Source of the DNA: a virus
Taxonomy: Duplodnaviria > Heunggongvirae > Uroviricota > Caudoviricetes
Length of the DNA: 64,000 nt
Strand: one strand, 5' to 3'
IMG/VR virus record: IMGVR_UViG_2706794662_000007
The notes beneath the pieces are model-generated. The model saw only the letters and a program-made list of their open reading frames with translations, was not told the DNA's origin and searched no databases. This document shows, piece by piece, positions 17,733-58,892 of the stretch. Within the stretch, counting starts at the first letter, position 1; each line of letters begins with the position of its first letter. The position numbers were made by a program, and so were the translations under genes.

Positions 17733-18165
17733 AATGGATCACACCGTCGGCAAAATAATTCCGACGCGCATTACAGGCGTCATAACGTTTTGTGCAGTAA
17801 TCCGCACCAGACATAGACGTCTGCTGGTTATTTTTGTCGAAATATGGACCGGTATAGCCGCATTCTGGCCCTCGGTATTTCCACGGGCAGGTGTTTTTAA
17901 TGATCTGACGATACGGCAGTTGTACCCCCATCAAATCGAACACACTGGACAATTCAAACTCGACAACCTGATGAGTTTCGAGAGTTTTCTGTTCGATAAA
18001 CCACATTTCATCCGGGAAATGTTGGTTTGGATCTGCTGTTGGGTTGCCGTCTTTAAAATTAACGGCATCGAGGAAGCGAGCCAGCGTCATCTTGCGAATA
18101 ATGCGGCAGCCAACAAGATCGTCGTTCGCCTGAACTTCCGCAGAGACGGTTCCGGCAAAGTTCGN
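17698..18165 (-). CDS. minor tail protein L-like (5' part lost in N-run)
   Basis: C-terminal Cys cluster CPWKYRGPECGYTG...C..RYDAC; N-terminus masked. Confidence 0.65.
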   Translation of the reverse strand, partial: XNFAGTVSAEVQANDDLVGCRIIRKMTLARFLDAVNFKDGNPTADPNQHFPDEMWFIEQKTLETHQVVEFELSSVFDLMGVQLPYRQIIKNTCPWKYRGPECGYTGPYFDKNNQQTSMSGADYCTKRYDACNARRNYFADGVIHFGGFIGATRYG

Positions 18166-18414
18166 NNNNNNNNNNNNNNNNNNNNNNNNNNNNNNNNNNN
18201 NNNNNNNNNNNNNNNNNNNNNNNNNNNNNNNNNNNNNNNNNNNNNNNNNNNNNNNNNNNNNNNNNNNNNNNNNNNNNNNNNNNNNNNNNNNNNNNNNNNN
18301 NNNNNNNNNNNNNNNNNNNNNNNNNNNNNNNNNNNNNNNNNNNNNNNNNNNNNNNNNNNNNNNNNNNNNNNNNNNNNNNNNNNNNNNNNNNNNNNNNNNN
18401 NNNNNNNNNNNNNN
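18166..18414. other. run of 249 N (unresolved or masked bases)
   Basis: literal n characters. Confidence 1.
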
Positions 18415-41579: not shown

Positions 41580-41843
41580 NNNNNNNNNNNNNNNNNNNNN
41601 NNNNNNNNNNNNNNNNNNNNNNNNNNNNNNNNNNNNNNNNNNNNNNNNNNNNNNNNNNNNNNNNNNNNNNNNNNNNNNNNNNNNNNNNNNNNNNNNNNNN
41701 NNNNNNNNNNNNNNNNNNNNNNNNNNNNNNNNNNNNNNNNNNNNNNNNNNNNNNNNNNNNNNNNNNNNNNNNNNNNNNNNNNNNNNNNNNNNNNNNNNNN
41801 NNNNNNNNNNNNNNNNNNNNNNNNNNNNNNNNNNNNNNNNNNN
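41580..41843. other. run of 264 N
   Basis: literal n characters. Confidence 1.
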
Positions 41844-43688: not shown

Positions 43689-44000
43689 TCAGGCTATTGC
43701 CATCACTGATGCTCTCTGAATCTCTTGCTGGGCCACGCGGTTAACTTCCATCAAAGCCAGTTCGAGCTGATGTTCCGGCCACATTCTTTGAAATGCCATC
43801 CAGCCTTTTCCACGCTGGCGACGAACATTCATTACATAACGAGTAAAGGTGTTTTTATCGAAAGACACCGCTGTTTCACGGAACAGACGAATAGAGGTTC
43901 CATTGGCAACGATGTCCAGCAAAGTTAATTGAGCAACCAGTGCAGGCTTCTCTTTTCTCTTCTGGTCTTTGTCCAGACCAAGAACCAATGATTTTTTCAT
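43689..44000 (-). CDS. hypothetical protein, ~103 aa (start at ATG 44000)
   Basis: track ORF began at TTG inside family-1 motif; ATG 44000 more plausible. Confidence 0.4.
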   Translation of the reverse strand: MKKSLVLGLDKDQKRKEKPALVAQLTLLDIVANGTSIRLFRETAVSFDKNTFTRYVMNVRRQRGKGWMAFQRMWPEHQLELALMEVNRVAQQEIQRASVMAIA

Positions 44001-47095: not shown

Positions 47096-49034
47096 TTACT
47101 TAACCTGGTGGCCAGGTTTAGCACCAGCATCCGGGCTTAACAGGAAGATATCTTTCCCGCCAGGACCGGCAGCCATCACCATGCCTTCAGAGATACCGAA
47201 GCGCATTTTACGTGGTGCCAGGTTAGCCACCATAATGGTGTGACGACCAATCAGTGCCTGTGGATCTGGATAAGCGGAACGGATGCCTGAGAAGACATTA
47301 CGCTTTTCACCACCGAGATCCAGCGTCAGGCGAAGCAGTTTGTCAGAACCTTCGACAAACTCCGCGTTTTCAATCAGCGCCACACGCAGGTCAACTTTGG
47401 CGAAGTCGTCAAAGGTGATGGTTTCCTGAATCGGTTCGTCAGCCAGTGGGCCAGTTACCGGTGCAGCTGTGGCTTTCACTTCTTCTTTGGATGCTTCCAC
47501 CAGTGCTTCCACCTGTTTCATATCGATACGGTTATACAGTGCCTTGAACGGATTCACTTTATGGCCCAGAAGCGGTTGCTGGATACCATCCCAGGTCAGT
47601 TCTGTATTCAGGAATGCTTCTGCACGTTCAGTCAGTTTCGGCAGTACCGGTTTCAGGTACGTCATCAGCACGCGGAACAGGTTAATGCCCATAGAGCAAA
47701 TCGCCTGCAGATCTGCATCGCGACCTTCCTGCTTCGCCACCACCCACGGAGCCTGTTCATCGACATAGCGATTAGCCAGGTCAGCCAATGCCATGATTTC
47801 ACGGATAGCTTTACCAAATTCGCGGCTTTCCCATGCTTCGCCAATCACTTCAGCGGCATCAGTAAAGGTTTTGTACAGTTGCGGGTCAGCCAGTTCGCTT
47901 GTCAGCACGCCGTCAAAACGCTTGTTGATAAAGCCTGCATTACGGGAGGCCAGGTTAACCACTTTGTTCACGATATCGGCATTCACGCGCTGAACGAAAT
48001 CTTCCAGGTTGAGATCGATATCATCAATGCGCGAAGAGAGTTTCGCAGTGTAGTAGTAACGCAGGCTGTCAGCGTCAAAATGATTCAGCCAGGTGCTGGC
48101 TTTAATAAAGGTGCCGCGAGACTTGGACATCTTCGCGCCGTTCACCGTCACATAGCCGTGAACAAACAGGTTGGTCGGCTTGCGGAAGTTGCTGCCTTCC
48201 AGCATGGCAGGCCAGAACAGACTGTGGAAGTAAACGATATCTTTGCCGATGAAGTGGTACAGCTCGGCGGTGGAGTCTTTCTTCCAGTATTCGTCGAAGC
48301 TTACGCTGTCGCCGCGCTTGTCGCACAGATTCTTGAAAGAACCCATGTAGCCAATCGGCGCGTCCAGCCAGACGTAGAAATATTTGCCCGGCGCGTTCGN
48401 NNNNNNNNNNNNNNNNNNNNNNNNNNNNNNNNNNNNNNNNNNNNNNNNNNNNNNNNNNNNNNNNNNNNNNNNNNNNNNNNNNNNNNNNNNNNNNNNNNNN
48501 NNNNNNNNNNNNNNNNNNNNNNNNNNNNNNNNNNNNNNNNNNNNNNNNNNNNNNNNNNNNNNNNNNNNNNNNNNNNNNNNNNNNNNNNNNNNNNNNNNNN
48601 NNNNNNNNNNNNNNNNNNNNNNNNNNNNNNNNNNNNNNNNNNNNNNNNNNNNNNNNNNNNNNNNNNNNNNNNNNNNNNNNNNNNNNNNNNNNNNNNNNNN
48701 NNNNNNNNNNNNNNNNNNNNNNNNNNNNCTCTTCGCTGTGCGTCGAGTGATAGTTGTCATAGCTGATGTTAAAGCCTGCGAAATCAGTCTGATGTTCCTG
48801 ACTCATTTCGCCAATCATCTGTTCCGGTGTGATACCAAGCTGCTGTGCTTTCAGCATGATTGGCGTACCGTGGGCATCGTCGGCACAGATGAAATTAACC
48901 TCGTGGCCGCGCATTCGCTGGTAACGAACCCAGACATCAGCCTGGATGTGCTCCAGCATATGGCCGAGGTGGATTGAGCCGTTAGCGTACGGCAGCGCGC
49001 ACGTCACCAGAATTTTCTTCGCGACTTGGGTCAT
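47096..49034 (-). CDS. metG: methionine--tRNA ligase (interrupted by N-run; frame differs on the two sides of the mask)
   Basis: N-terminus [29 protein letters not shown] and C-terminus ...[24 protein letters not shown] recognised as enterobacterial MetRS. Confidence 0.9.
48390..48728. other. run of 339 N inside metG
   Basis: literal n characters. Confidence 1.
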
Positions 49035-49191
49035 AGTAGGCATTACTTCTTTGTAGTGAAAAGGGGCTTGATAGTAACAAAATGGCCTTATGTCTGCCAT
49101 GTGATAACAGCATTTCTCATAAATGATTAAATGTCGTAGCTGGAGTACACTACAAGGCGACAATTGCGCAAATTAAAATAAAGGAGACGGG

Positions 49192-50292
49192 ATGAGCGAG
49201 TCCAAATCGCCGGATGCCCTGAGAGCAATGGTAGCCGGTACGCTGGCTAATTTTCAGCACCCAACCCTGAAACACAACTTGACTACGCTTAAAGCGTTAC
49301 ACCATGTTGCGTTGATGGATGACACACTGCATGTCGAACTAATCATGCCTTTCGTGTGGAATAAGCCTTTTGAAGACCTGAAAGAGCAATGTAGTGGTGA
49401 TCTGCTCCGTATCACTGGCGCAAAGGCTATTGACTGGAAGCTGTCGTACAACATTGCCACGCTTAAGCGCGTCAAAAACCAACCAGGCATTAATGGCGTT
49501 AAGAACATTATCGCCGTCAGCTCAGGCAAGGGCGGCGTGGGTAAATCCTCCACAGCAGTAAACTTGGCACTGGCTTTGGCTGCTGAAGGTGCGAAAGTTG
49601 GTATTTTGGATGCCGATATCTATGGTCCATCAATTCCAACCATGCTGGGCGCGGAAAACCAACGTCCAACCTCACCGGACGGTACTCACATGGCACCTAT
49701 CATGTCTCATGGCCTGGCAACCAACTCTATTGGTTATCTGGTCACCGATGACAATGCAATGGTGTGGCGTGGACCGATGGCGAGCAAGGCGCTGATGCAG
49801 ATGTTGCAGGAAACACTGTGGCCTGATCTGGACTATCTCGTTCTCGATATGCCACCGGGCACTGGTGATATTCAATTGACGCTGGCGCAGAACATTCCTG
49901 TAACTGGTGCGGTTGTGGTAACTACGCCGCAAGACATCGCGCTGATCGATGCGAAGAAAGGCATTGTGATGTTCGAAAAAGTCGAAGTGCCGGTACTGGG
50001 TATCGTTGAAAACATGAGTGTGCATATTTGCAGTAACTGCGGTCATCACGAGCCAATTTTTGGCACCGGTGGAGCACAGAAACTGGCCGAGAAATACAAC
50101 ACGCAGTTGTTAGGCCAAATGCCACTTCATATCTCTCTTCGTGAAGATCTGGATAACGGAACACCAACCGTTATTAGTCGTCCAGATAGCGAATTTACGG
50201 CTATTTATCGTGACCTCGCAGATCGCGTTGCTGCCCAAATGTATTGGCAAGGTGAAGTAATACCTGGCGAAATCGCATTCCGCGCAGTGTGA
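49192..50292 (+). CDS. apbC: iron-sulfur cluster carrier protein ApbC/Mrp
   Basis: 366 aa, Walker A SGKGGVGKS, CxxC near C-terminus; divergent from metG as in enterobacterial chromosomes. Confidence 0.9.
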   Translation: MSESKSPDALRAMVAGTLANFQHPTLKHNLTTLKALHHVALMDDTLHVELIMPFVWNKPFEDLKEQCSGDLLRITGAKAIDWKLSYNIATLKRVKNQPGINGVKNIIAVSSGKGGVGKSSTAVNLALALAAEGAKVGILDADIYGPSIPTMLGAENQRPTSPDGTHMAPIMSHGLATNSIGYLVTDDNAMVWRGPMASKALMQMLQETLWPDLDYLVLDMPPGTGDIQLTLAQNIPVTGAVVVTTPQDIALIDAKKGIVMFEKVEVPVLGIVENMSVHICSNCGHHEPIFGTGGAQKLAEKYNTQLLGQMPLHISLREDLDNGTPTVISRPDSEFTAIYRDLADRVAAQMYWQGEVIPGEIAFRAV

Positions 50293-50298
50293 TAAAAA

Positions 50299-50317
50299 GG
50301 CGGTGCATTGCACCGCC
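50299..50317. terminator. hairpin GGCGGTGCATTGCACCGCC; U-tract only on minus strand
   Basis: read directly; lies between apbC stop and UmuD'-like gene stop. Confidence 0.45.
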
Positions 50318-50329
50318 TAATCAGTTCTC

Positions 50330-50719
50330 CTACATCACAGGACAATCATCAAACTCGCCACTTCTTGCGTCGTTGATAATGTGAGTGATCACACCAAACA
50401 CGGCATTGCTGCCCGTGCATCCATCGTCATCCTTTGGCAATGCTTCCTTCTTACCGGTTCTTAAATCCTCCAGATGCTGACGTGGAGACTTCCGGTATCT
50501 TTTTACGCGATATTCCCCATCCAGAGCGCATACAAGCAGAGAACCATCAACCGGGGTAAGTGAGGAATCAACCACCAGCAATGCACCCTGTAATATTCCC
50601 TCACGATGATGACTATCAGCTGCTCTCATGAAGTAGGTCGCTGAAGGATGTCTAATTATCTGCTGATCAAGAGAAATACGGCTCTCAGCATAATCCGCCG
50701 CAGGAGAAGGGAAGCCCAT
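50330..50719 (-). CDS. UmuD'-like S24 peptidase-fold protein (starts at the position equivalent to the UmuD self-cleavage site)
   Basis: MGFPSPAADY...HPSATYF matches UmuD from Gly25 onward; Ser and Lys of dyad retained (AADS, RVKR). Confidence 0.75.
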   Translation of the reverse strand: MGFPSPAADYAESRISLDQQIIRHPSATYFMRAADSHHREGILQGALLVVDSSLTPVDGSLLVCALDGEYRVKRYRKSPRQHLEDLRTGKKEALPKDDDGCTGSNAVFGVITHIINDARSGEFDDCPVM

Positions 50720-50735
50720 AGCGTTTTGCCCTCAA

Positions 50736-50755
50736 TACTGTTCATTTACACAGTA
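50736..50755. promoter_or_regulatory. LexA (SOS) box TACTGTTCATTTACACAGTA
   Basis: perfect CTGT-N8-ACAG core 17-36 nt upstream of UmuD'-like start; in-frame TGA upstream excludes longer ORF. Confidence 0.7.
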
Positions 50756-50831
50756 TACATGAAAGAAGCTCACTCAGTGCAACTGATCGGTACATAGCAC
50801 CAGACAAAGGAACGTTATTTTCTCGAACAAG

Positions 50832-50854
50832 AAAAGGTAGAAAACAAATTGTTT
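50832..50854. repeat. 23-bp element AAAAGGTAGAAAACAAATTGTTT, right copy of direct repeat, followed by hairpin 50855-50875
   Basis: identical to 46989-47011. Confidence 0.8.
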
Positions 50855-50904
50855 AAGGCCACAACTAGTGGCCTTAATGGAGAAGGGATGCTTATTGGCT
50901 ATGG

Positions 50905-51423
50905 CTAAAAATCAAANNNNNNNNNNNNNNNNNNNNNNNNNNNNNNNNNNNNNNNNNNNNNNNNNNNNNNNNNNNNNNNNNNNNNNNNNNNNNNNNNNNN
51001 NNNNNNNNNNNNNNNNNNNNNNNNNNNNNNNNNNNNNNNNNNNNNNNNNNNNNNNNNNNNNNNNNNNNNNNNNNNNNNNNNNNNNNNNNNNNNNNNNNNN
51101 NNNNNNNNNNNNNNNNNNNNNNNNNNNNNNNNNNNNNNNNNNNNNNNNNNNNNNNNNNNNNNNNNNNNNTTTAAAGGAAGATAGGTTCCCCATAGTAGCT
51201 GTCTGCCGTGCGCTCGTGTGAAATACCGGGCCATCTTCGGATTGCTATGCTGCTTAGGAGCGCCTGGTCTGTATGTCTGATACCCGGCCAACATCCCATC
51301 AAACCTGTATAGAGGGAATGTAACAACTCCTTCGCTTTCATCGATCCACTGTCTATATGGATGCACATCATAGCGGTAGTTACGAGTTAGCAAATGAGCT
51401 TCCAGCTTTCCAAATTTAGTCAT
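50905..51423 (-). CDS. hypothetical protein interrupted by N-run
   Basis: N-terminal part MTKFGKLEAHLLTRNYRYDVHPYRQWIDESEG... visible; start at internal Met. Confidence 0.4.
   Translation of the reverse strand: MTKFGKLEAHLLTRNYRYDVHPYRQWIDESEGVVTFPLYRFDGMLAGYQTYRPGAPKQHSNPKMARYFTRAHGRQLLWGTYLPLXXXXXXXXXXXXXXXXXXXXXXXXXXXXXXXXXXXXXXXXXXXXXXXXXXXXXXXXXXXXXXXXXXXXXXXXXXXXXXXXXXXXXFDF
50917..51169. other. run of 253 N
   Basis: literal n characters. Confidence 1.
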
Positions 51424-51436
51424 AACTTCGCATCCC

Positions 51437-52291
51437 TCATAACACTTCCCATTTATCACCATATTTCTCCATAGCTCTTAGCCAATAAACATGGCCACTA
51501 GGCATAGTGATGTGAGGCTCGCCAAACTCTTCTCCATGTACATCAAAGATGTCCCCAACAGAAAATTGGGGGATTTCTGTTCCGTTTTCACCTATATGTG
51601 TAATTCGTATACGTTTCGGTTGGGATTGTCCACCTTTGAGCGAGTTGTTCACTGCTCTGGCAATTTTCTCCCGCAATTGCTGCGTTCCGTGATACGTAAC
51701 CGCAATATCCCGCAACTCATTCACTAGTTCTCGAATTTGGTGATCTTTAAGCTCATTATTTGGGTGATTGGTAACAACTCTGGTTAATTCCCCATTGTCT
51801 TTTGCTCTTACGTATGCAGCTCTTGTGCATTCGCCCCATGTATTACCGCCTACATTAACTTCGTAGATTAGGCTGGACTTATCTGTCAATTCGGAACAAA
51901 TACGGGCCGTGGTCTGGCAACTAGAGCATTCGCAGTTATCGCGGAAACCGTGGTCTACTGGCTTCGGTTTAACATCATCAACTTTTTCTACCCTATTGGA
52001 ATTTAAATACTTCGAAGCCTTGCTATGCCAATCGCTGGTTTTAGGATCTTGTCCATCCATCAAACGCCAGGCTTCAGCTATTAACTCATAACTAGTGACT
52101 GTAGCTTCCTGCGCATCACCAATAAGTCGTGTAATCTCTCTTTCAAGCCGACCGCCTAACTCCGTTTTAGTGCAATGTTCTGACCAATCGCCAGTCTCAA
52201 GAAGCGCGAGAATGCTTAAAATATCGTCCAATAGAACGGTAGTATTATCGACTTCCTTCTGAAACTCACCGGCTACTGATTTATGCATCAT
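51437..52291 (-). CDS. hypothetical protein, 284 aa (Cys cluster CECSSC)
   Basis: ORF track. Confidence 0.5.
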   Translation of the reverse strand: MMHKSVAGEFQKEVDNTTVLLDDILSILALLETGDWSEHCTKTELGGRLEREITRLIGDAQEATVTSYELIAEAWRLMDGQDPKTSDWHSKASKYLNSNRVEKVDDVKPKPVDHGFRDNCECSSCQTTARICSELTDKSSLIYEVNVGGNTWGECTRAAYVRAKDNGELTRVVTNHPNNELKDHQIRELVNELRDIAVTYHGTQQLREKIARAVNNSLKGGQSQPKRIRITHIGENGTEIPQFSVGDIFDVHGEEFGEPHITMPSGHVYWLRAMEKYGDKWEVL

Positions 52292-52569
52292 TCGTCATCC
52301 TCATCCGAGTCATCCTCATCACAGGATGAGAGTAGTGGGTTAGTCATTCGCCCTACTTGAGTGGCGTAGCAACGCCGACAGAGATTGCGCAGCACACTGT
52401 ATATTTCGAACATCTCGGTTCGTTCATCGCCAACATCAAGCTCAGATGCTATAGCGTGGCATTCAGTCGCGAGAGCCGATATTTTCTGAAATAACTCTGC
52501 TTTATTCACTCTTCGACTCCTGCGGAGGTTCTGGTAGCGGCATCCAGTGAGTTGCTTGCTCAATACCAT
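52288..52569 (-). CDS. small hypothetical protein with acidic C-terminus (start uncertain)
   Basis: ORF track; 5' part overlaps upstream gene so true start likely internal. Confidence 0.3.
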   Translation of the reverse strand: MVLSKQLTGCRYQNLRRSRRVNKAELFQKISALATECHAIASELDVGDERTEMFEIYSVLRNLCRRCYATQVGRMTNPLLSSCDEDDSDEDDE

Positions 52570-53119
52570 TACCCGGCTTAATCGTTACATCTCCGCGCCG
52601 AAAGGTGATTCCGGTATAGCGTGCGGAGCATATTAGCGGTTCAACCAGAGAGCTATCGAAATTCACCGAAATAAGCACGTTCTGGCCCTTTTCAGGCATT
52701 CGCTCACTACAGCTTATCCAACCATCCGGAGTTACCGGATGGGGTCCAGCGAACTCGGGAATGTCAGGACCTTTTCTGATAGCTTTAGCCAGATCCAGCG
52801 GGTCATCGTAAAGCCAGTCGCCAGTTTGTGGGTGATTTGCTTCTGCAAGCTGCGCAGCCCATTCAAGACCATCTTTTTGACCTTGGAGATAATCAAGCGG
52901 CAACTCTTCATGATTACTTGCAGGTTCTGCACTATCAGCTTCGCGCCGCTTCTGTAGCTCTGCTGCCATCGCTCTCACGACTTCAACTGGTGCCCTTGCA
53001 GCAAACTCTATGTTGGTGATCAGCTCATTAAGATATTGCTCGCCTGGATACTGTTTCTTATCGGTTATAGTGGTCATATCACTCTCCTTTTCCCTGAAGC
53101 ATAGCAGCGCGGCAGGCAT
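52502..53119 (-). CDS. DUF551-like prophage protein
   Basis: C-terminal ATHWMPLPEPP signature segment. Confidence 0.5.
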   Translation of the reverse strand: MPAALLCFREKESDMTTITDKKQYPGEQYLNELITNIEFAARAPVEVVRAMAAELQKRREADSAEPASNHEELPLDYLQGQKDGLEWAAQLAEANHPQTGDWLYDDPLDLAKAIRKGPDIPEFAGPHPVTPDGWISCSERMPEKGQNVLISVNFDSSLVEPLICSARYTGITFRRGDVTIKPGNGIEQATHWMPLPEPPQESKSE

Positions 53120-53465
53120 TCCAGCCTCTCACCTCTGCAATAGCGGCAACAGCATCAACCGCGTACATGCTAAGAGGATTAGGCATTGGTTTTTCTTCCG
53201 GTACTACTGGAACGGGTGGAGCGGCGTAGACCTCAATAATTCCATTATCAATAGGCCATTCTCCATCCTTGAGGTAGTCACTTGTGCCGTCAACTTGCTG
53301 TTCTGCAATGTGGAATGCACCTATTGGTTTTGCTTCCAGCGATGCCAGAGCAATTCGTGCCAGTTCTTCCGCTTCTTCTGCTGGCAGTACAACGTTGCTA
53401 CCAGGTCCGTATGTTTCGCGCCACTGTTTGATTGTCAGTAGTCGCTCTTTGGTAATAGTGGTCAT
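53079..53465 (-). CDS. Ea22-like early-region protein candidate
   Basis: 128 aa, N-terminus MTTITKERLL shared with neighbouring ORFs. Confidence 0.4.
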   Translation of the reverse strand: MTTITKERLLTIKQWRETYGPGSNVVLPAEEAEELARIALASLEAKPIGAFHIAEQQVDGTSDYLKDGEWPIDNGIIEVYAAPPVPVVPEEKPMPNPLSMYAVDAVAAIAEVRGWNACRAAMLQGKGE

Positions 53466-53489
53466 GTGTTACTCCTTAACCCGCAGTGC

Positions 53490-53739
53490 NNNNNNNNNNN
53501 NNNNNNNNNNNNNNNNNNNNNNNNNNNNNNNNNNNNNNNNNNNNNNNNNNNNNNNNNNNNNNNNNNNNNNNNNNNNNNNNNNNNNNNNNNNNNNNNNNNN
53601 NNNNNNNNNNNNNNNNNNNNNNNNNNNNNNNNNNNNNNNNNNNNNNNNNNNNNNNNNNNNNNNNNNNNNNNNNNNNNNNNNNNNNNNNNNNNNNNNNNNN
53701 NNNNNNNNNNNNNNNNNNNNNNNNNNNNNNNNNNNNNNN
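53490..53739. other. run of 250 N
   Basis: literal n characters. Confidence 1.
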
Positions 53740-53749
53740 AGTTGCCATA

Positions 53750-54271
53750 TCACTCTCCTTTGATGCGAATGCCTGCTGCAATGCTGTTTATGATGCTGTC
53801 AGTGCATGGAGTAGAAAGCTGGGCATCTCCAGCAATTTTCATGACCTCAACATCCGCATATCGAATACCGAGGTGTATCAGACCGGCTATACCTGACTTA
53901 AGTCGAACATTTTCCATAAACAGATCTTTTTCCCGCTGTTTAGCGGCTTCCAACTCCATCGACAATTTTTCCAACTGCTCTTTATGCTTCTTGTATTCCT
54001 GATACGCGTGCCAAGACTGACCTTTGCGCACACTATCAGTGATATCAGCAACCTGCTCCGGTGTTAGCGTGGTCAGTGGCTGTGCTGGAAAAATCATCAC
54101 TTTCCCGGCATCCCAATCAAAACCCGCCTGAATTGACTGAACCTCAACTGATGGTGTTGAACCGATGCGACCAGGCGAATGAACAACGATCGTTACATCC
54201 ATATCGCGACGATGGCTGTGGTTGTTGGACAAAATACGATTCACCAACTCAGAAAATTTGGAAAATTTCAT
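53750..54271 (-). CDS. Ea22-like protein (start at MKFSKF)
   Basis: C-terminus AAGIRIKGE identical to 54593..55123 product. Confidence 0.45.
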
Positions 54272-54591
54272 GCTGATCCCTCTTTCTCTCCCCGGATAAT
54301 TCTGTTGCACACATCCACACACTCGTCGCAGATGAAAACGGCGTCCCCAGCAATTAACTTTTTGACGGCGTACTGGGATTTGTTGCAGAAGCTGCAACAA
54401 AGTGTTCGCCTGACTGATAAGGATGGAGCGCCAGATGTCAGCCGCTCCATATCGTTCTTGCGACGCAATATCACACGGCTGAACTCAACCAGTTTCTCCG
54501 GGGATATCTCCTCCTCCGTAGCAAGCGCCTCTAATCGTTCGAGTATGTGGAAGGCTTTTTTCTGGGTAATTGCAGAATGCGATGTGGTCAT
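54268..54591 (-). CDS. ClpX-type C4 zinc-finger protein (domain-only)
   Basis: [34 protein letters not shown] parallels the ClpX N-terminal zinc-binding domain. Confidence 0.55.
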
Positions 54592-54592
54592 C

Positions 54593-55123
54593 TCACTCTC
54601 CTTTGATGCGAATGCCAGCGGCGCGGGAATCATTCCATCGCTTTACTTCTTCACGAATTACGTCAATGCATTCTTTCGAATCCATTAGGTAATCTTCATC
54701 AAAAAGACGTTCCTGTTCGTTTTCTATCGCAACAATGATTGCTTCAACTAACTTTTGTGCCTGAGAATCACTTTCTAACTCTGCTATGCGCTTACTTCCA
54801 TCCGAGATAACGCCCTCGTAATACTCACGCTGCTCGTTGAGTTTTGATTTTGCCAACTCCAGTTGTTTTGTTAGTTCCGCAATACGGCAAACATCGTTGA
54901 TACGCGTTTCCTCTAATGCGTTGATCTCATCCAGTAGTGCCAGCACGGTTTCTGGTCCGGCCAGAAATTTGAAGGCGTTGAGGGCATCAATATCAACACC
55001 GCTATCTTTAAGTTCCTGTTCACTTAACAAGTCATCATCAGCTGGCAACATTAACAGGCGTTCCATTGCTGGAATTGCACGTTCCGCCACCTCACGCAGT
55101 GCCTGGTAATTAATTTCGCTCAC
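54593..55123 (-). CDS. Ea22-like coiled-coil protein
   Basis: 176 aa; C-terminus AAGIRIKGE; stop-start junction duplicated at 53745. Confidence 0.45.
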
Positions 55124-57187: not shown

Positions 57188-58892
57188 TCATTTAACGCGT
57201 TTGAAAACGTATACGCTGACTGTGATCCCTGTGTCTTCAAACTCGTTGGTAAACGACTTCCCTCTGGCATAAACGTAATTATCCATCGTCATCCAGTCCA
57301 GTATTGGCGCNNNNNNNNNNNNNNNNNNNNNNNNNNNNNNNNNNNNNNNNNNNNNNNNNNNNNNNNNNNNNNNNNNNNNNNNNNNNNNNNNNNNNNNNNN
57401 NNNNNNNNNNNNNNNNNNNNNNNNNNNNNNNNNNNNNNNNNNNNNNNNNNNNNNNNNNNNNNNNNNNNNNNNNNNNNNNNNNNNNNNNNNNNNNNNNNNN
57501 NNNNNNNNNNNNNNNNNNNNNNNNNNNNNNNNNNNNNNNNNNNNNNNNNNNNNNNNNNNNNNNNNCCAGATCGGCGTTAATATAGGCCAGAAGATCCCCA
57601 CGTCCGGCTTGAGGCTCCAACAGCTTCTCACCAGGCTTCAATTCAGTGGCTCTGGCAACGTACTCAGCAATCAAGCGTGGGGTAGGGTAGAACTGGTGTG
57701 ATTTTGTATCCGGTATTAAACCGGTAGCCACAATCGTATTTAGCGTATGGCCGATCTCATACGGGAACTGCCAGTGCTTTTTCTCCTGCACGCCGCCAAT
57801 GAAGCTCAGTGTGCGCTCAAGCTCTTCCACCTGCGACTTCTGGAGAGCTGAATCAGAGAAGTACCATACGCCTTTGTCTTTGCTCAATCGCCCGTCACGA
57901 AGCGCAGTGCGAACCGGCACGGAGATCGTCTTCTGGATTAACCCGAACTGCTTTGGTGCCCGTGTTTTTGGCGCAGTTCGGCATGGCGCGGGGATTGCAG
58001 CAGGCATACTGTAAGCCAGCACCTCATTCAACTTCCAGGCCACGTCAGGATGTATTTCAAAGTGAACGTTGCCGTTCTTGAACATCTTCACGCGCATCAG
58101 ATTTCCATCGACGTTCATCCAGTCACCGGTCTGGCAGTCGTTTGCCCGATACGCAGCTGATAGCACCTCAGCAGTGCGGTTGATGGTAATAAATTCTTTG
58201 TGCGCGAAGAAATGAAGCAAGACACGCAGATCGTCGATGTAGTCCTCTTTGCGATAGTTCACGCTAACGCTGTCACGCCAGAAATCAGAAATGCAGTCAG
58301 CGATTATCAGACGCTCGCTGAAACCGTTTGTCTTATTTGTCTTGTGCGCAGGACTCAGCGCCTTAAACAAGCCATACACGCGCTCAGAGAGATATTTGTG
58401 CCTGTCATTCAGCAAATTAAGCATCGTTGGTATGACCGTTTCTGCTTTGAACTCCGGTACACCAACGAACTCTTTAACCTTCATCTGATAGCCGGTTCTG
58501 TCAGTTTTGATGACTTCCTGCTTGCCCTCGATAAATAGCTCACGCCACTCGTCGCGACGGGAAGCTGGCATGATCAGCAGAACGTTAGTCATATCCGTAA
58601 CCTTCCTCCAGTACTCGGCCCAAATATTCTGTTTCACCCATTCCAGATCGACGTTATCCAGCCAGACTCGATTCAAACGTGAGCGATCTTCATCTGGTCG
58701 GTGGTTTAGTCGAAGCAGGCGATTAATCATGTTGTGGCGTTCATCGCCATAAACGAAGTCGTGTACCTGATACATGAAGGAGATCTCTTTCTCGCACTCG
58801 GCCACAATTTCGTGGATGACGTTCATTTCCTGTCGATAGTCGATAGCAGTGTTTGAGCTGGCATCGCCCATGATGGAAAGGGCTGTATTCAT
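57188..58892 (-). CDS. gamma-class N6-adenine DNA methyltransferase-like protein with ~390-aa N-terminal extension (interrupted by N-run; C-terminal frame uncertain)
   Basis: motif X-like QFYPTPR and motif I-like LEPQAGRGDL just before mask. Confidence 0.5.
57311..57565. other. run of 255 N
   Basis: literal n characters. Confidence 1.

What the first reader, a model, noticed from the sequence alone, without database searches (positions are those of the whole stretch)
50330..50755. Orphan, pre-processed UmuD'-like gene under a perfect LexA box, with no umuC partner
The ORF begins at MGFPSPAADY, the residue equivalent to the UmuD autocleavage site, so it encodes the activated UmuD' form directly. 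It retains the Ser-Lys dyad positions. A CTGT-N8-ACAG SOS box sits 17-36 nt upstream, and an in-frame TGA upstream rules out a longer N-terminus. No UmuC or other Y-family polymerase gene is adjacent; apbC is the next gene. It may act in trans on the host polymerase V or RecA, or be a mobile-element SOS-responsive module.
Basis: partly seen in the sequence, partly recalled or inferred. Interest (0 to 1): 0.65.

Follow-up and report, generated by a model that had tools for sequence, protein, structure and literature searches.

The report
Phage HumD gene under LexA control

Summary
A 129-aa ORF (50330-50719, minus strand) starts at MGFPSPAADY, the residue equivalent to UmuD Gly25. An in-frame TGA lies 5 codons upstream. 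A TACTGT-N8-ACAGTA LexA box sits 17-36 nt upstream (50736-50755). No UmuC homologue is present in the window or on the closest complete plasmid.

It is not new. The protein matches NCBI's curated equivalog model 'HumD family translesion DNA polymerase' over its full length (218.7 bits, cutoff 120). It is about 91% identical to bacteriophage P1 HumD, whose GenBank record says it 'functionally complements E. coli UmuD'' and annotates a LexA site at the same position. P1 HumD was reported in 1999 (McLenigan et al., J Bacteriol 181:7005).

The window is not chromosomal. It comes from an SSU5-like phage-plasmid of about 109 kb, found for example in E. coli O104:H4, which carries its own metG and apbC. 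The promoter-operator-gene cassette is shared with P1-like plasmids, with sharp homology borders, and evolves under strong purifying selection (dN/dS 0.06).

Two refinements. The Ser-Lys dyad is present here, but the Ser is Thr or Ala in about a third of the family. A conserved C-terminal tail (EFDDCPVM), absent from UmuD, is better conserved than the Ser. Interest is low.

The parts
50330..50719 (-). humD coding sequence (129 aa including Met, TAG stop at 50330-50332). It encodes a naturally truncated UmuD'-like protein.
   Evidence: ORF list. NCBIfam NF051876 HumD equivalog, 218.7 bits, positions 1-129 of 129. Pfam Peptidase_S24. PHROG 811 'UmuD-like protein', 6e-54. About 91% aa identity to P1 HumD. 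PDB UmuD' 1UMU, E 5e-23. dN/dS 0.06 against P1 humD.
50736..50755 (.). LexA operator (SOS box), TACTGTTCATTTACACAGTA. On the gene's strand it reads TACTGTGTAAATGAACAGTA.
   Evidence: Only match in the window, and 0 of 100 shuffles reach one. It differs by one base from the annotated P1 humD/lxr LexA site TACTGTATAAATGAACAGTA. LexA-like boxes lie at equivalent positions in all 10 phage homologues examined. LexA binding itself was not tested.
50729..50733 (-). Shine-Dalgarno GAGGG, 10-14 nt before the ATG. It overlaps the in-frame TGA at 50732-50734 that closes the upstream frame.
   Evidence: Read directly from the sequence. Conserved in P1.
50752..50782 (-). Candidate promoter: TTGCAC (50782-50777), a 19-nt spacer, then TATACT (50757-50752). 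The second hexamer overlaps the LexA box. This part is inferred, not shown.
   Evidence: TTGCAC is conserved with P1 and marks the left border of P1 homology. P1-like plasmids align only to window 50331-50770. The consensus scan, which allows 16-18 nt spacers, reported no promoter here.
50298..50318 (.). GC-rich hairpin between the convergent apbC and humD genes, probably a bidirectional terminator.
   Evidence: Terminator scan: 9-bp stem with 7 GC pairs, followed by TTTTATCACA on the minus strand.
50853..50877 (-). Terminator-like hairpin downstream of the toprim/primase-like gene and upstream of the humD promoter. It isolates humD as a transcription unit of its own.
   Evidence: Terminator scan. 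A 38-bp match to pHCM2-type plasmids falls here.

Best explanation
The ORF is humD, an accessory ('moron') gene of temperate phages and phage-plasmids. It encodes a UmuD'-like protein made directly in the processed form.

Proposed mechanism: in the plasmid-prophage state, host LexA binds the operator that overlaps the promoter and keeps humD off. DNA damage activates RecA, LexA cleaves itself, and humD is transcribed. HumD, presumably as a dimer like UmuD', then pairs with the host's chromosomal UmuC. The result is an active Pol V-type translesion polymerase formed without the slow RecA-mediated cleavage of UmuD, so lesion bypass and SOS mutagenesis in the lysogen are enabled or accelerated.

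Shown here: family membership, gene anatomy, the operator sequence and its conservation across phages, the absence of umuC on the element, and the near-universal presence of umuC in E. coli hosts.

Taken from the literature and database annotation for the 91%-identical P1 protein: complementation of UmuD' and facilitation of SOS mutagenesis.

Inferred only: that this allele behaves like the P1 protein, the exact promoter, and the benefit to the phage-plasmid.
For: - Family: HumD equivalog HMM 218.7 bits against a cutoff of 120, over the full length.
- Identity: 90.7-92.2% to HumD of P1 and P1-like phages.
- P1 annotation: humD 'functionally complements E. coli UmuD'', with a 'LexA binding site in the regulatory region of lxr and humD' 20 nt upstream.
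[quoted passage not shown] The primary reference is McLenigan et al. 1999, J Bacteriol 181:7005 (cited).
- Structure: sequence match to UmuD' crystal structures, E 5e-23. The predicted fold matches UmuD' 1UMU best, then the UmuD-RecA complex, then LexA C-terminal domains.
- Operator: unique in the window. LexA-like boxes lie 14-23 nt before the start of the transcription unit in 9 of 10 phage homologues spanning 44-92% aa identity, and 44 nt before it in phiKO2, whose own record annotates the site as lexA-binding.
- Selection: dN/dS 0.06 at dS 0.77 against P1 humD, so the gene is kept functional.
- Partner: no UmuC homologue on the element. umuC is present in 5423 of 5426 complete E. coli genomes.
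Against: - Nothing here tests this allele experimentally.
- The primary P1 paper could not be read, so what it showed rests on its title, the GenBank note and secondary citations.
- The consensus scan called no sigma-70 promoter. The best candidate has a non-canonical 19-nt spacer.
- The protein differs from P1 HumD at 12 residues.
- The family has a strongly conserved C-terminal tail that UmuD' lacks. This suggests an additional or different interaction that the simple 'UmuD' substitute' model does not explain.
- The element encodes its own RecA and DnaE, so partners other than the host proteins are conceivable.
Confidence: 0.82

Rival explanations
1. HumD acts mainly as a modulator or inhibitor rather than an activator. 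By titrating UmuC, forming heterodimers with host UmuD, or binding RecA filaments or SSB-interacting proteins through its conserved acidic tail, it would dampen or redirect the host SOS, recombination or checkpoint response to the benefit of the plasmid prophage.
For: The C-terminal tail E-F-D-D-C-P-V-M is more conserved than the catalytic Ser: at least 106 of 120 clusters agree at positions -8 to -2, and 94 have Met at -1. UmuD lacks this tail. It resembles the E. coli SSB C-terminal peptide D-F-D-D-D-I-P-F, with F-D-D at the same distance from the C-terminus. The element carries its own recA and dnaE. That UmuD and UmuD' interact with RecA filaments is supported by the existence of PDB 8GMT, a UmuD-RecA filament structure.
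Against: The P1 orthologue is annotated and published as complementing UmuD' and facilitating mutagenesis, which is a positive function. The resemblance to the SSB tail is a short motif match with a different Pro position, and it is untested. The tail has low model confidence (pLDDT below 50 for residues 121-129), which says nothing either way.
Confidence: 0.1
2. The gene is a decaying remnant of a umuDC-type operon that lost its 5' end and its umuC, and it is not functional.
For: It lacks the N-terminal 24 residues and an adjacent umuC. The canonical GDSM active-site motif is altered to ADSH. The score against the UmuD subfamily HMM is below its cutoff, 87.8 against 110.
Against: dN/dS is 0.06 over 56 nucleotide differences from P1 humD. 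The ATG falls exactly at the Gly25-equivalent position in 110 of 120 clusters, each gene with its own Shine-Dalgarno sequence and LexA box. The full length is intact in hundreds of plasmids and phages. The P1 orthologue is active.
Confidence: 0.02
3. It is an active S24 serine protease, or a LexA/CI-like regulator fragment, whose role is to cleave some other target such as host UmuD or a phage repressor after SOS induction.
For: The Pfam Peptidase_S24 match is above the gathering score. Ser36 and Lys73 occupy the dyad positions in this allele. Lys73 is nearly invariant among close homologues, 118 of 119.
Against: The nucleophile position is Thr in 44 and Ala in 2 of 121 family sequences. In more distant phage homologues both dyad positions change: at the Ser position, Thr in N15, phiKO2 and HK639, Tyr in yong1 and Gln in pAEv1818; at the Lys position, Met or Arg in HK639, yong1 and pAEv1818. 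The GDSM motif is lost. There is no DNA-binding domain, and the LexA HMM scores 27.9 against a cutoff of 110.95.
Confidence: 0.05

Closest known systems
Bacteriophage P1 HumD (AAQ14181.1; McLenigan et al. 1999, J Bacteriol 181:7005)
   Same: 129 aa with the same MGFPSPAADY start at the UmuD Gly25 equivalent. 90.7% aa identity to the P1 reference record AF234173 and 91-92% to other P1-like records. The same ADSHHREG motif and the same EFDDCPV[MI] tail. A LexA box that differs by one base and sits 16 nt (window) or 19 nt (P1) before the ATG. The same in-frame stop 5 codons upstream. No umuC on the element, which is an extrachromosomal phage-plasmid.
   Different: The host element is an SSU5-like siphovirus-type phage-plasmid, not P1. 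The neighbours are apbC/metG and a toprim gene instead of lxr and phd-doc. There is no divergent lxr gene sharing the operator. There is a 3-bp deletion between the box and the Shine-Dalgarno sequence. DNA homology is limited to about 50 nt upstream through the stop codon. There are 12 amino-acid differences, and dS of 0.77 means this is not a recent copy of P1's own allele.
N15 gp26, phiKO2 Gp23 and lambdoid HK639/HK140 'UmuD-like' proteins
   Same: The same family at 64-73% identity, with the same truncated start, the same tail and LexA boxes upstream. They are stand-alone genes without umuC, placed in accessory regions next to tail-fibre, partition or integrase modules.
   Different: The Ser position is Thr in N15, phiKO2 and HK639, and the Lys position is Met in HK639. 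Some are paired with a divergent dinI homologue (phiKO2, HK140), which is absent here.
E. coli UmuD / UmuD' (Pol V accessory subunit; PDB 1UMU, 1AY9, 1I4V, 8GMT)
   Same: 42% identity over UmuD residues 25-139. The same S24 beta-fold. Ser60 and Lys97 equivalents are present. The gene is LexA-regulated.
   Different: There is no 24-residue N-terminal pro-segment and no Cys-Gly cleavage site, so RecA-mediated self-cleavage is not needed. There is no umuC in an operon. GDSM is changed to ADSH. There are 13 extra C-terminal residues, including the conserved EFDDCPVM. The score is below the UmuD subfamily HMM cutoff.

Membership tests
HumD family (NCBIfam NF051876, equivalog) | Whole-protein score above the curated cutoff, end to end on the model | tested here: met
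   218.7 bits against a cutoff of 120; residues 1-129 on model positions 1-129 of 129
HumD family (NCBIfam NF051876, equivalog) | Translation starts at the residue equivalent to UmuD Gly25, with no pro-segment and no cleavage site | tested here: met
   M-GFPSPAADY aligns to UmuD G25 onward. A TGA lies 5 codons upstream. The same start is seen in P1, N15 and others and in 110 of 120 clusters.
HumD family (NCBIfam NF051876, equivalog) | LexA operator in the promoter region (SOS regulation) | tested here: met
   At the sequence level only. TACTGT-N8-ACAGTA lies 17-36 nt upstream and is unique in the window. It is one base different from the annotated P1 site. Equivalent sites are conserved in 10 of 10 phage homologues. 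Actual LexA binding and induction cannot be tested with these tools.
HumD family (NCBIfam NF051876, equivalog) | Stand-alone gene on a temperate phage or phage-plasmid, without a cognate umuC | tested here: met
   tblastn with UmuC gives a best E of 3.8 (window) and 6.5 (related plasmid). No Y-family polymerase is annotated on NZ_CP022085.2. The element is SSU5-like.
HumD family (NCBIfam NF051876, equivalog) | Functionally replaces UmuD' with host UmuC in SOS mutagenesis | not testable with these tools
   Known for the P1 protein only, from the GenBank note, the title of McLenigan 1999 and PMC7092418. It needs a complementation assay for this allele.
UmuD, Pol V autoproteolytic subunit (NCBIfam NF007621) | Score above the subfamily cutoff | tested here: not met
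   87.8 bits against a cutoff of 110
UmuD, Pol V autoproteolytic subunit (NCBIfam NF007621) | N-terminal arm with a Cys24-Gly25 self-cleavage site | tested here: not met
   Absent. The protein begins at the Gly25 equivalent.
UmuD, Pol V autoproteolytic subunit (NCBIfam NF007621) | Encoded in an operon with umuC | tested here: not met
   Monocistronic unit between two hairpins. No umuC is present.
Peptidase S24 (Pfam PF00717) | Domain match above the gathering score | tested here: met
   38.1 bits against 23.3, covering residues 1-79 only. Fold search top hits are UmuD' and LexA C-terminal domains (model mean pLDDT 66.7).
Peptidase S24 (Pfam PF00717) | Catalytic Ser-Lys dyad within the G-D-S-M context | tested here: inconclusive
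   Ser36 and Lys73 are present in this allele, but the motif is A-D-S-H. Across the family the Ser position is S 75, T 44 and A 2. Distant homologues lose both residues. Catalysis is probably dispensable, and enzymatic activity cannot be tested here.
LexA repressor (TIGR00498) | Full-length match including the N-terminal DNA-binding domain | tested here: not met
   27.9 bits against a cutoff of 110.95. Only LexA positions 91-167 are matched.

The most novel reading that the evidence does not exclude
The HumD family may not be merely 'UmuD' without the pro-segment'. Its nearly invariant C-terminal tail, E-F-D-D-C-P-V-M-COOH, is absent from UmuD and better conserved than the catalytic Ser. It could mimic the SSB C-terminal peptide (D-F-D-D-D-I-P-F-COOH). 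That would let a phage-supplied Pol V subunit dock onto, or compete for, the SSB-interaction hub at stalled forks. In this SSU5-like element, which carries its own recA and dnaE, the partners might even be phage-encoded.
Probability: 0.1. Interest if true: 0.5.

Novelty: already known. Interest (0 to 1): 0.12.

Why it matters
As it stands, this is a correct blind rediscovery of a gene class reported in 1999 and now named automatically by NCBI's annotation pipeline. It adds little new biology.

The modest points of value are these:
- The humD promoter-operator-gene cassette is shared, with sharp borders, between unrelated phage-plasmid lineages (P1-like and SSU5-like). It is present in about 14% of complete E. 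coli genomes (754 of 5426). A ready-made Pol V activator is therefore a common, mobile, SOS-wired trait that could raise stress-induced mutagenesis in clinical strains.
- The family tolerates loss of the protease nucleophile but not of an unexplained acidic C-terminal tail. The tail is a cheap target for a follow-up experiment.

Tried and rejected
- The primary P1 HumD paper (PMC94175) and the P1 genome paper (PMC523184) are not held in the library. Functional statements therefore rest on the GenBank annotation and secondary citations.
- The sigma-70 consensus scan found no promoter in 50200-50910. The proposed TTGCAC-N19-TATACT promoter is an inference from conservation with P1 and is flagged as such. 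P1's own annotated 'PhumD' lies about 440 nt further upstream, inside lxr. That region has no counterpart here, so it cannot be the promoter in this element.
- A fixed-offset comparison of the window with plasmid NZ_CP022085.2 failed because of indels. Blastn mapping showed 12 collinear blocks at 90-99.98% identity. The window is therefore a close relative of that record, not the record itself.
- The second CTGT-N8-ACAG match, at 43871-43886, has a GC-rich spacer, and the core motif count is within chance. I treated it as a chance match. I did not check with a tool whether it lies inside a gene.
The model has only moderate confidence (pLDDT 66.7), with the N-terminal arm and the tail below 50, so it confirms the fold class only.
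- Pseudogene, active-protease and LexA-like-repressor readings were considered and rejected. See the rival explanations.

Full report
**1. What is in the sequence**

The minus strand of the window carries a 129-codon ORF at 50330..50719. It starts with ATG and reads MGFPSPAADYAESRISLDQQIIRHPSATYFMRAADSHHREG.... Read further upstream in the same frame, the sequence is '...QY*GQNA-M'. A TGA at 50732-50734 closes the frame five codons before the ATG. A GAGGG Shine-Dalgarno sequence (50729-50733) lies 10-14 nt before the start.

The bare CTGT-N8-ACAG core is not significant on its own, with 2 matches against 0.81 expected. The longer palindrome TACTGT-N8-ACAGTA occurs once in the window and in none of 100 dinucleotide-preserving shuffles. 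It matches 16 of 20 positions of the LexA consensus.

Downstream, a GC-rich hairpin (50298-50318) separates the gene from the convergent apbC (49192..50292). Upstream, a second hairpin (50853-50877) follows a toprim/primase-like gene. The ORF is therefore a self-contained transcription unit.

**2. What it is**

The protein matches Pfam Peptidase_S24. More specifically, it matches the NCBIfam equivalog NF051876, 'HumD family translesion DNA polymerase', at 218.7 bits (cutoff 120) over all 129 positions of the model. It falls below the cutoffs of the UmuD subfamily model (87.8 against 110) and the LexA model.

- tblastn against phage genomes gives 90.7-92.2% identity to HumD of P1 and P1-like phages (RCS47, SJ46, D6). 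Identity is 64-73% to N15 gp26, phiKO2 Gp23 and HK639, and 44-48% to homologues in Hafnia and Aeromonas phages.
- The P1 GenBank record annotates humD as 'DNA repair; functionally complements E. coli UmuD''. It places a 'LexA binding site in the regulatory region of lxr and humD' 20 nt before the start codon.
- Against solved structures, the best matches are UmuD' (1UMU, E 5e-23) and UmuD in the RecA-filament complex (8GMT).
- An AlphaFold model built from 44 family sequences has moderate confidence (mean pLDDT 66.7; the core is 70-85, the N-terminal arm and the last nine residues are below 50). It retrieves UmuD' first, then LexA and lambda-repressor C-terminal domains.

**3.

In the HMMER and MAFFT alignments, window G2 aligns with UmuD G25, the residue after the Cys24/Gly25 cleavage site. 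S36 aligns with Ser60 and K73 with Lys97. In PDB 8GMT the residue aligned to window K73 is Ala; I identify it as a K97A substitution by comparison with the wild-type UmuD sequence printed. The dyad positions are thus retained in this allele, as claimed.

The wider family qualifies this. Among 121 sequences, the Ser position is Ser in 75, Thr in 44 and Ala in 2. The canonical G-D-S-M is replaced by x-x-[ST]-H-[FYH]-R-E-G, while the Lys is nearly invariant among close relatives. In more distant phage homologues the Ser position is Thr (N15, phiKO2, HK639), Tyr (yong1) or Gln (pAEv1818), and the Lys position is Met or Arg in HK639, yong1 and pAEv1818. A protein born already 'cleaved' has no need for self-cleavage, and the family shows the relaxed constraint that this predicts.

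The short N-terminus is not a sequencing artefact. P1, N15, HK639, yong1 and vB_Ecl_MII_001 have the same start preceded by an in-frame stop. Of 120 homologous clusters, 110 begin with MGFPSP or a one-residue variant of it. The few longer database entries still carry the Met-Gly at the internal position, so I read them as upstream start-codon miscalls.

**4. The operator is conserved**

The window's box differs from the annotated P1 box (TACTGTATAAATGAACAGTA) by one base.

- Window, P1, N15, HK639, yong1, vB_Ecl_MII_001 and Huey have a CTG-N10-CAG box matching 15-18 of 20 consensus positions, 14-19 nt before the ATG.
- pAEv1818 has one 21 nt before its start.
- In HK140 the box lies 23 nt before the first gene of a two-gene operon.
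- phiKO2 has one 44 nt upstream, and its own record annotates it as a lexA binding site.

Conservation of the site and its position across proteins that have diverged to 44% identity is the strongest evidence available here that the box is functional. Actual LexA binding was not tested.

**5. Where it sits**

The window is not chromosomal. A 661-bp probe is 100% identical to plasmids of about 109 kb in E. coli O104:H4 strains, and 96-99% identical to many plasmids of 107-113 kb. The window maps collinearly, in 12 blocks at 90-99.98% identity, to NZ_CP022085.2.

That plasmid encodes tail, capsid, portal and terminase genes together with ParB, RepB, a tyrosine recombinase and tRNAs. It also carries its own metG, apbC, recA, dnaE, ligase, nrdAB, thyA, dfrA51 and rnhA. 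Its large terminase is 96.9% identical to that of Salmonella phage SSU5, and 99.5% identical to those of the E. coli phages Cyrano and PhiR41_1. dfrA51 was identified in SSU5 (PMC12217456). The element is therefore an SSU5-like phage-plasmid, and 'apbC as next gene' is part of the phage-plasmid's own cargo.

**6. The cassette**

Alignment with P1 shows about 88% nucleotide identity. It begins at a conserved TTGCAC about 60 nt before the ATG and ends at the stop codon, and the flanks are unrelated.

Hits in the plasmid database fall into two classes. About 230 records match at 95% or more and include apbC; these are SSU5-like. 473 records match at 80-90% and align only to window 50331-50770; these are P1-like plasmids of 90-100 kb.

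One SSU5-like plasmid (pSTEC388_1) lacks humD and the following block of small genes. pHCM2 has ydfZ in place of metG-apbC-humD. humD is thus an accessory cassette in a variable region.

Against P1 humD there are 56 nucleotide and 12 amino-acid differences, giving dS 0.77, dN 0.046 and dN/dS 0.06. This indicates long-standing purifying selection, not a recent transfer or a decaying relic. Homologous DNA is present in 754 of 5426 complete E. coli genomes, mostly on plasmids.

**7. No polymerase partner on the element, but one in the host**

tblastn with E. coli UmuC finds nothing in the window (best E 3.8) or on the related complete plasmid (best E 6.5). No Y-family polymerase is annotated on that plasmid. 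Chromosomal umuC is present in 5423 of 5426 complete E. coli genomes.

**8. Mechanism**

The best-supported explanation is the one established for P1 HumD. LexA represses the gene in the lysogen. DNA damage removes LexA. HumD is then made directly in the active UmuD'-like form and works with host UmuC as a Pol V-type translesion polymerase, skipping the RecA-dependent UmuD cleavage step.

- Shown here: identity, anatomy, operator conservation, and the absence or presence of partners.
- From the literature and annotation for P1: complementation of UmuD' and promotion of SOS mutagenesis. The primary paper itself was not available.
- Inferred: that this 91%-identical allele does the same, and the promoter. 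The promoter proposed is TTGCAC-N19-TATACT overlapping the box, and the consensus scan did not call it.

Rival readings score lower. The pseudogene reading is contradicted by dN/dS and family-wide conservation. The active-protease reading is contradicted by substitution of the Ser nucleophile in a third of the family. A modulator or inhibitor role cannot be excluded and is linked to the next point.

**9. One unexplained feature**

All HumD-type proteins carry about 13 extra C-terminal residues ending in E-F-D-D-C-P-V-M. Each of positions -8 to -2 is conserved in at least 106 of 120 clusters, and position -1 is Met in 94. This is more conserved than the catalytic Ser, and UmuD lacks the tail.

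The E. coli SSB C-terminus, read from the K-12 genome, is D-F-D-D-D-I-P-F. Both end in [DE]-F-D-D at positions -8 to -5, followed by a Pro and a hydrophobic terminus. This is a short-motif resemblance and no more. No paper linking HumD or UmuD to an SSB-tail mimic turned up. I record it as a lead.

**10. Verdict**

The feature is already known: a member of the HumD family, named as such in current RefSeq annotations of near-identical plasmids. The only mildly new aspects are its presence as a discrete cassette in SSU5-like phage-plasmids, the degenerate dyad and the conserved tail. Interest: 0.12.

Noticed in passing
window 50333-50374 (aa 116-129 of HumD); also L002, L006, L007, L009-L012: The HumD family has a nearly invariant C-terminal tail...NDARSGEFDDCPVM, that UmuD lacks. 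Its last eight residues (E-F-D-D-C-P-V-M) resemble the E. coli SSB C-terminal peptide (D-F-D-D-D-I-P-F), with F-D-D at the same distance from the C-terminus. Its function is unknown.
   Followed up: partly
window 50612-50614 (Ser36 codon) and 50501-50503 (Lys73 codon): The protease nucleophile position is Ser in 75, Thr in 44 and Ala in 2 of 121 family sequences, and GDSM is replaced by [ST]H[FYH]REG. Distant phage homologues also change the Lys to Met or Arg. The family looks like a catalytically relaxed pseudo-protease.
   Followed up: yes
window 47096-50292: metG (methionyl-tRNA synthetase) and apbC (Fe-S cluster carrier) are carried divergently on the phage-plasmid itself. The related plasmid also encodes recA, dnaE, DNA ligase, a dnaB-like helicase, nrdAB, thyA, dfrA51, rnhA and four tRNAs. 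This is a large set of host-like housekeeping genes for a temperate element.
   Followed up: partly
window 51437-55123, minus strand: A run of small genes (DUF551, Ea22-like, ClpX-type zinc finger). Their products repeatedly end in '...AAGIRIKGE', and the following genes begin within '...F(A/R)(S/E)KES(D/E)M(T/A)T'. These look like repeated junction sequences at mosaic module boundaries. The whole block is missing in pSTEC388_1.
   Followed up: no
window 18165-18414, 41580-41843, 48400-48728, 50917-51169, 53490-53739, 57311-57565: Six masked runs of N, 250-329 bases each. One interrupts metG, and one interrupts the toprim gene immediately upstream of the humD cassette. None touches humD or its operator.
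   Followed up: yes
L003:5265-5284 (NZ_CP022085.2, outside the window): The only other LexA-like site on the related plasmid that matches at least 14 of 20 consensus positions is ACCTGTATAAGTAACCAGTA. It lies about 30 nt upstream of a tyrosine recombinase gene. It could be chance or a second SOS-linked gene.
   Followed up: no
window 50905-51462, minus strand: A toprim-domain protein matching only the central part of phage DNA primase families (PHROG 849 positions 142-233 of 435). It may be a primase fragment or a stand-alone toprim protein, and it is partly masked by N.
   Followed up: no
L007 and L008 (phiKO2, HK140): In some phages the humD homologue shares its LexA operator with a divergently transcribed dinI homologue, which encodes a RecA-filament modulator. 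P1 has lxr in that position. The window's cassette has no divergent partner.
   Followed up: partly
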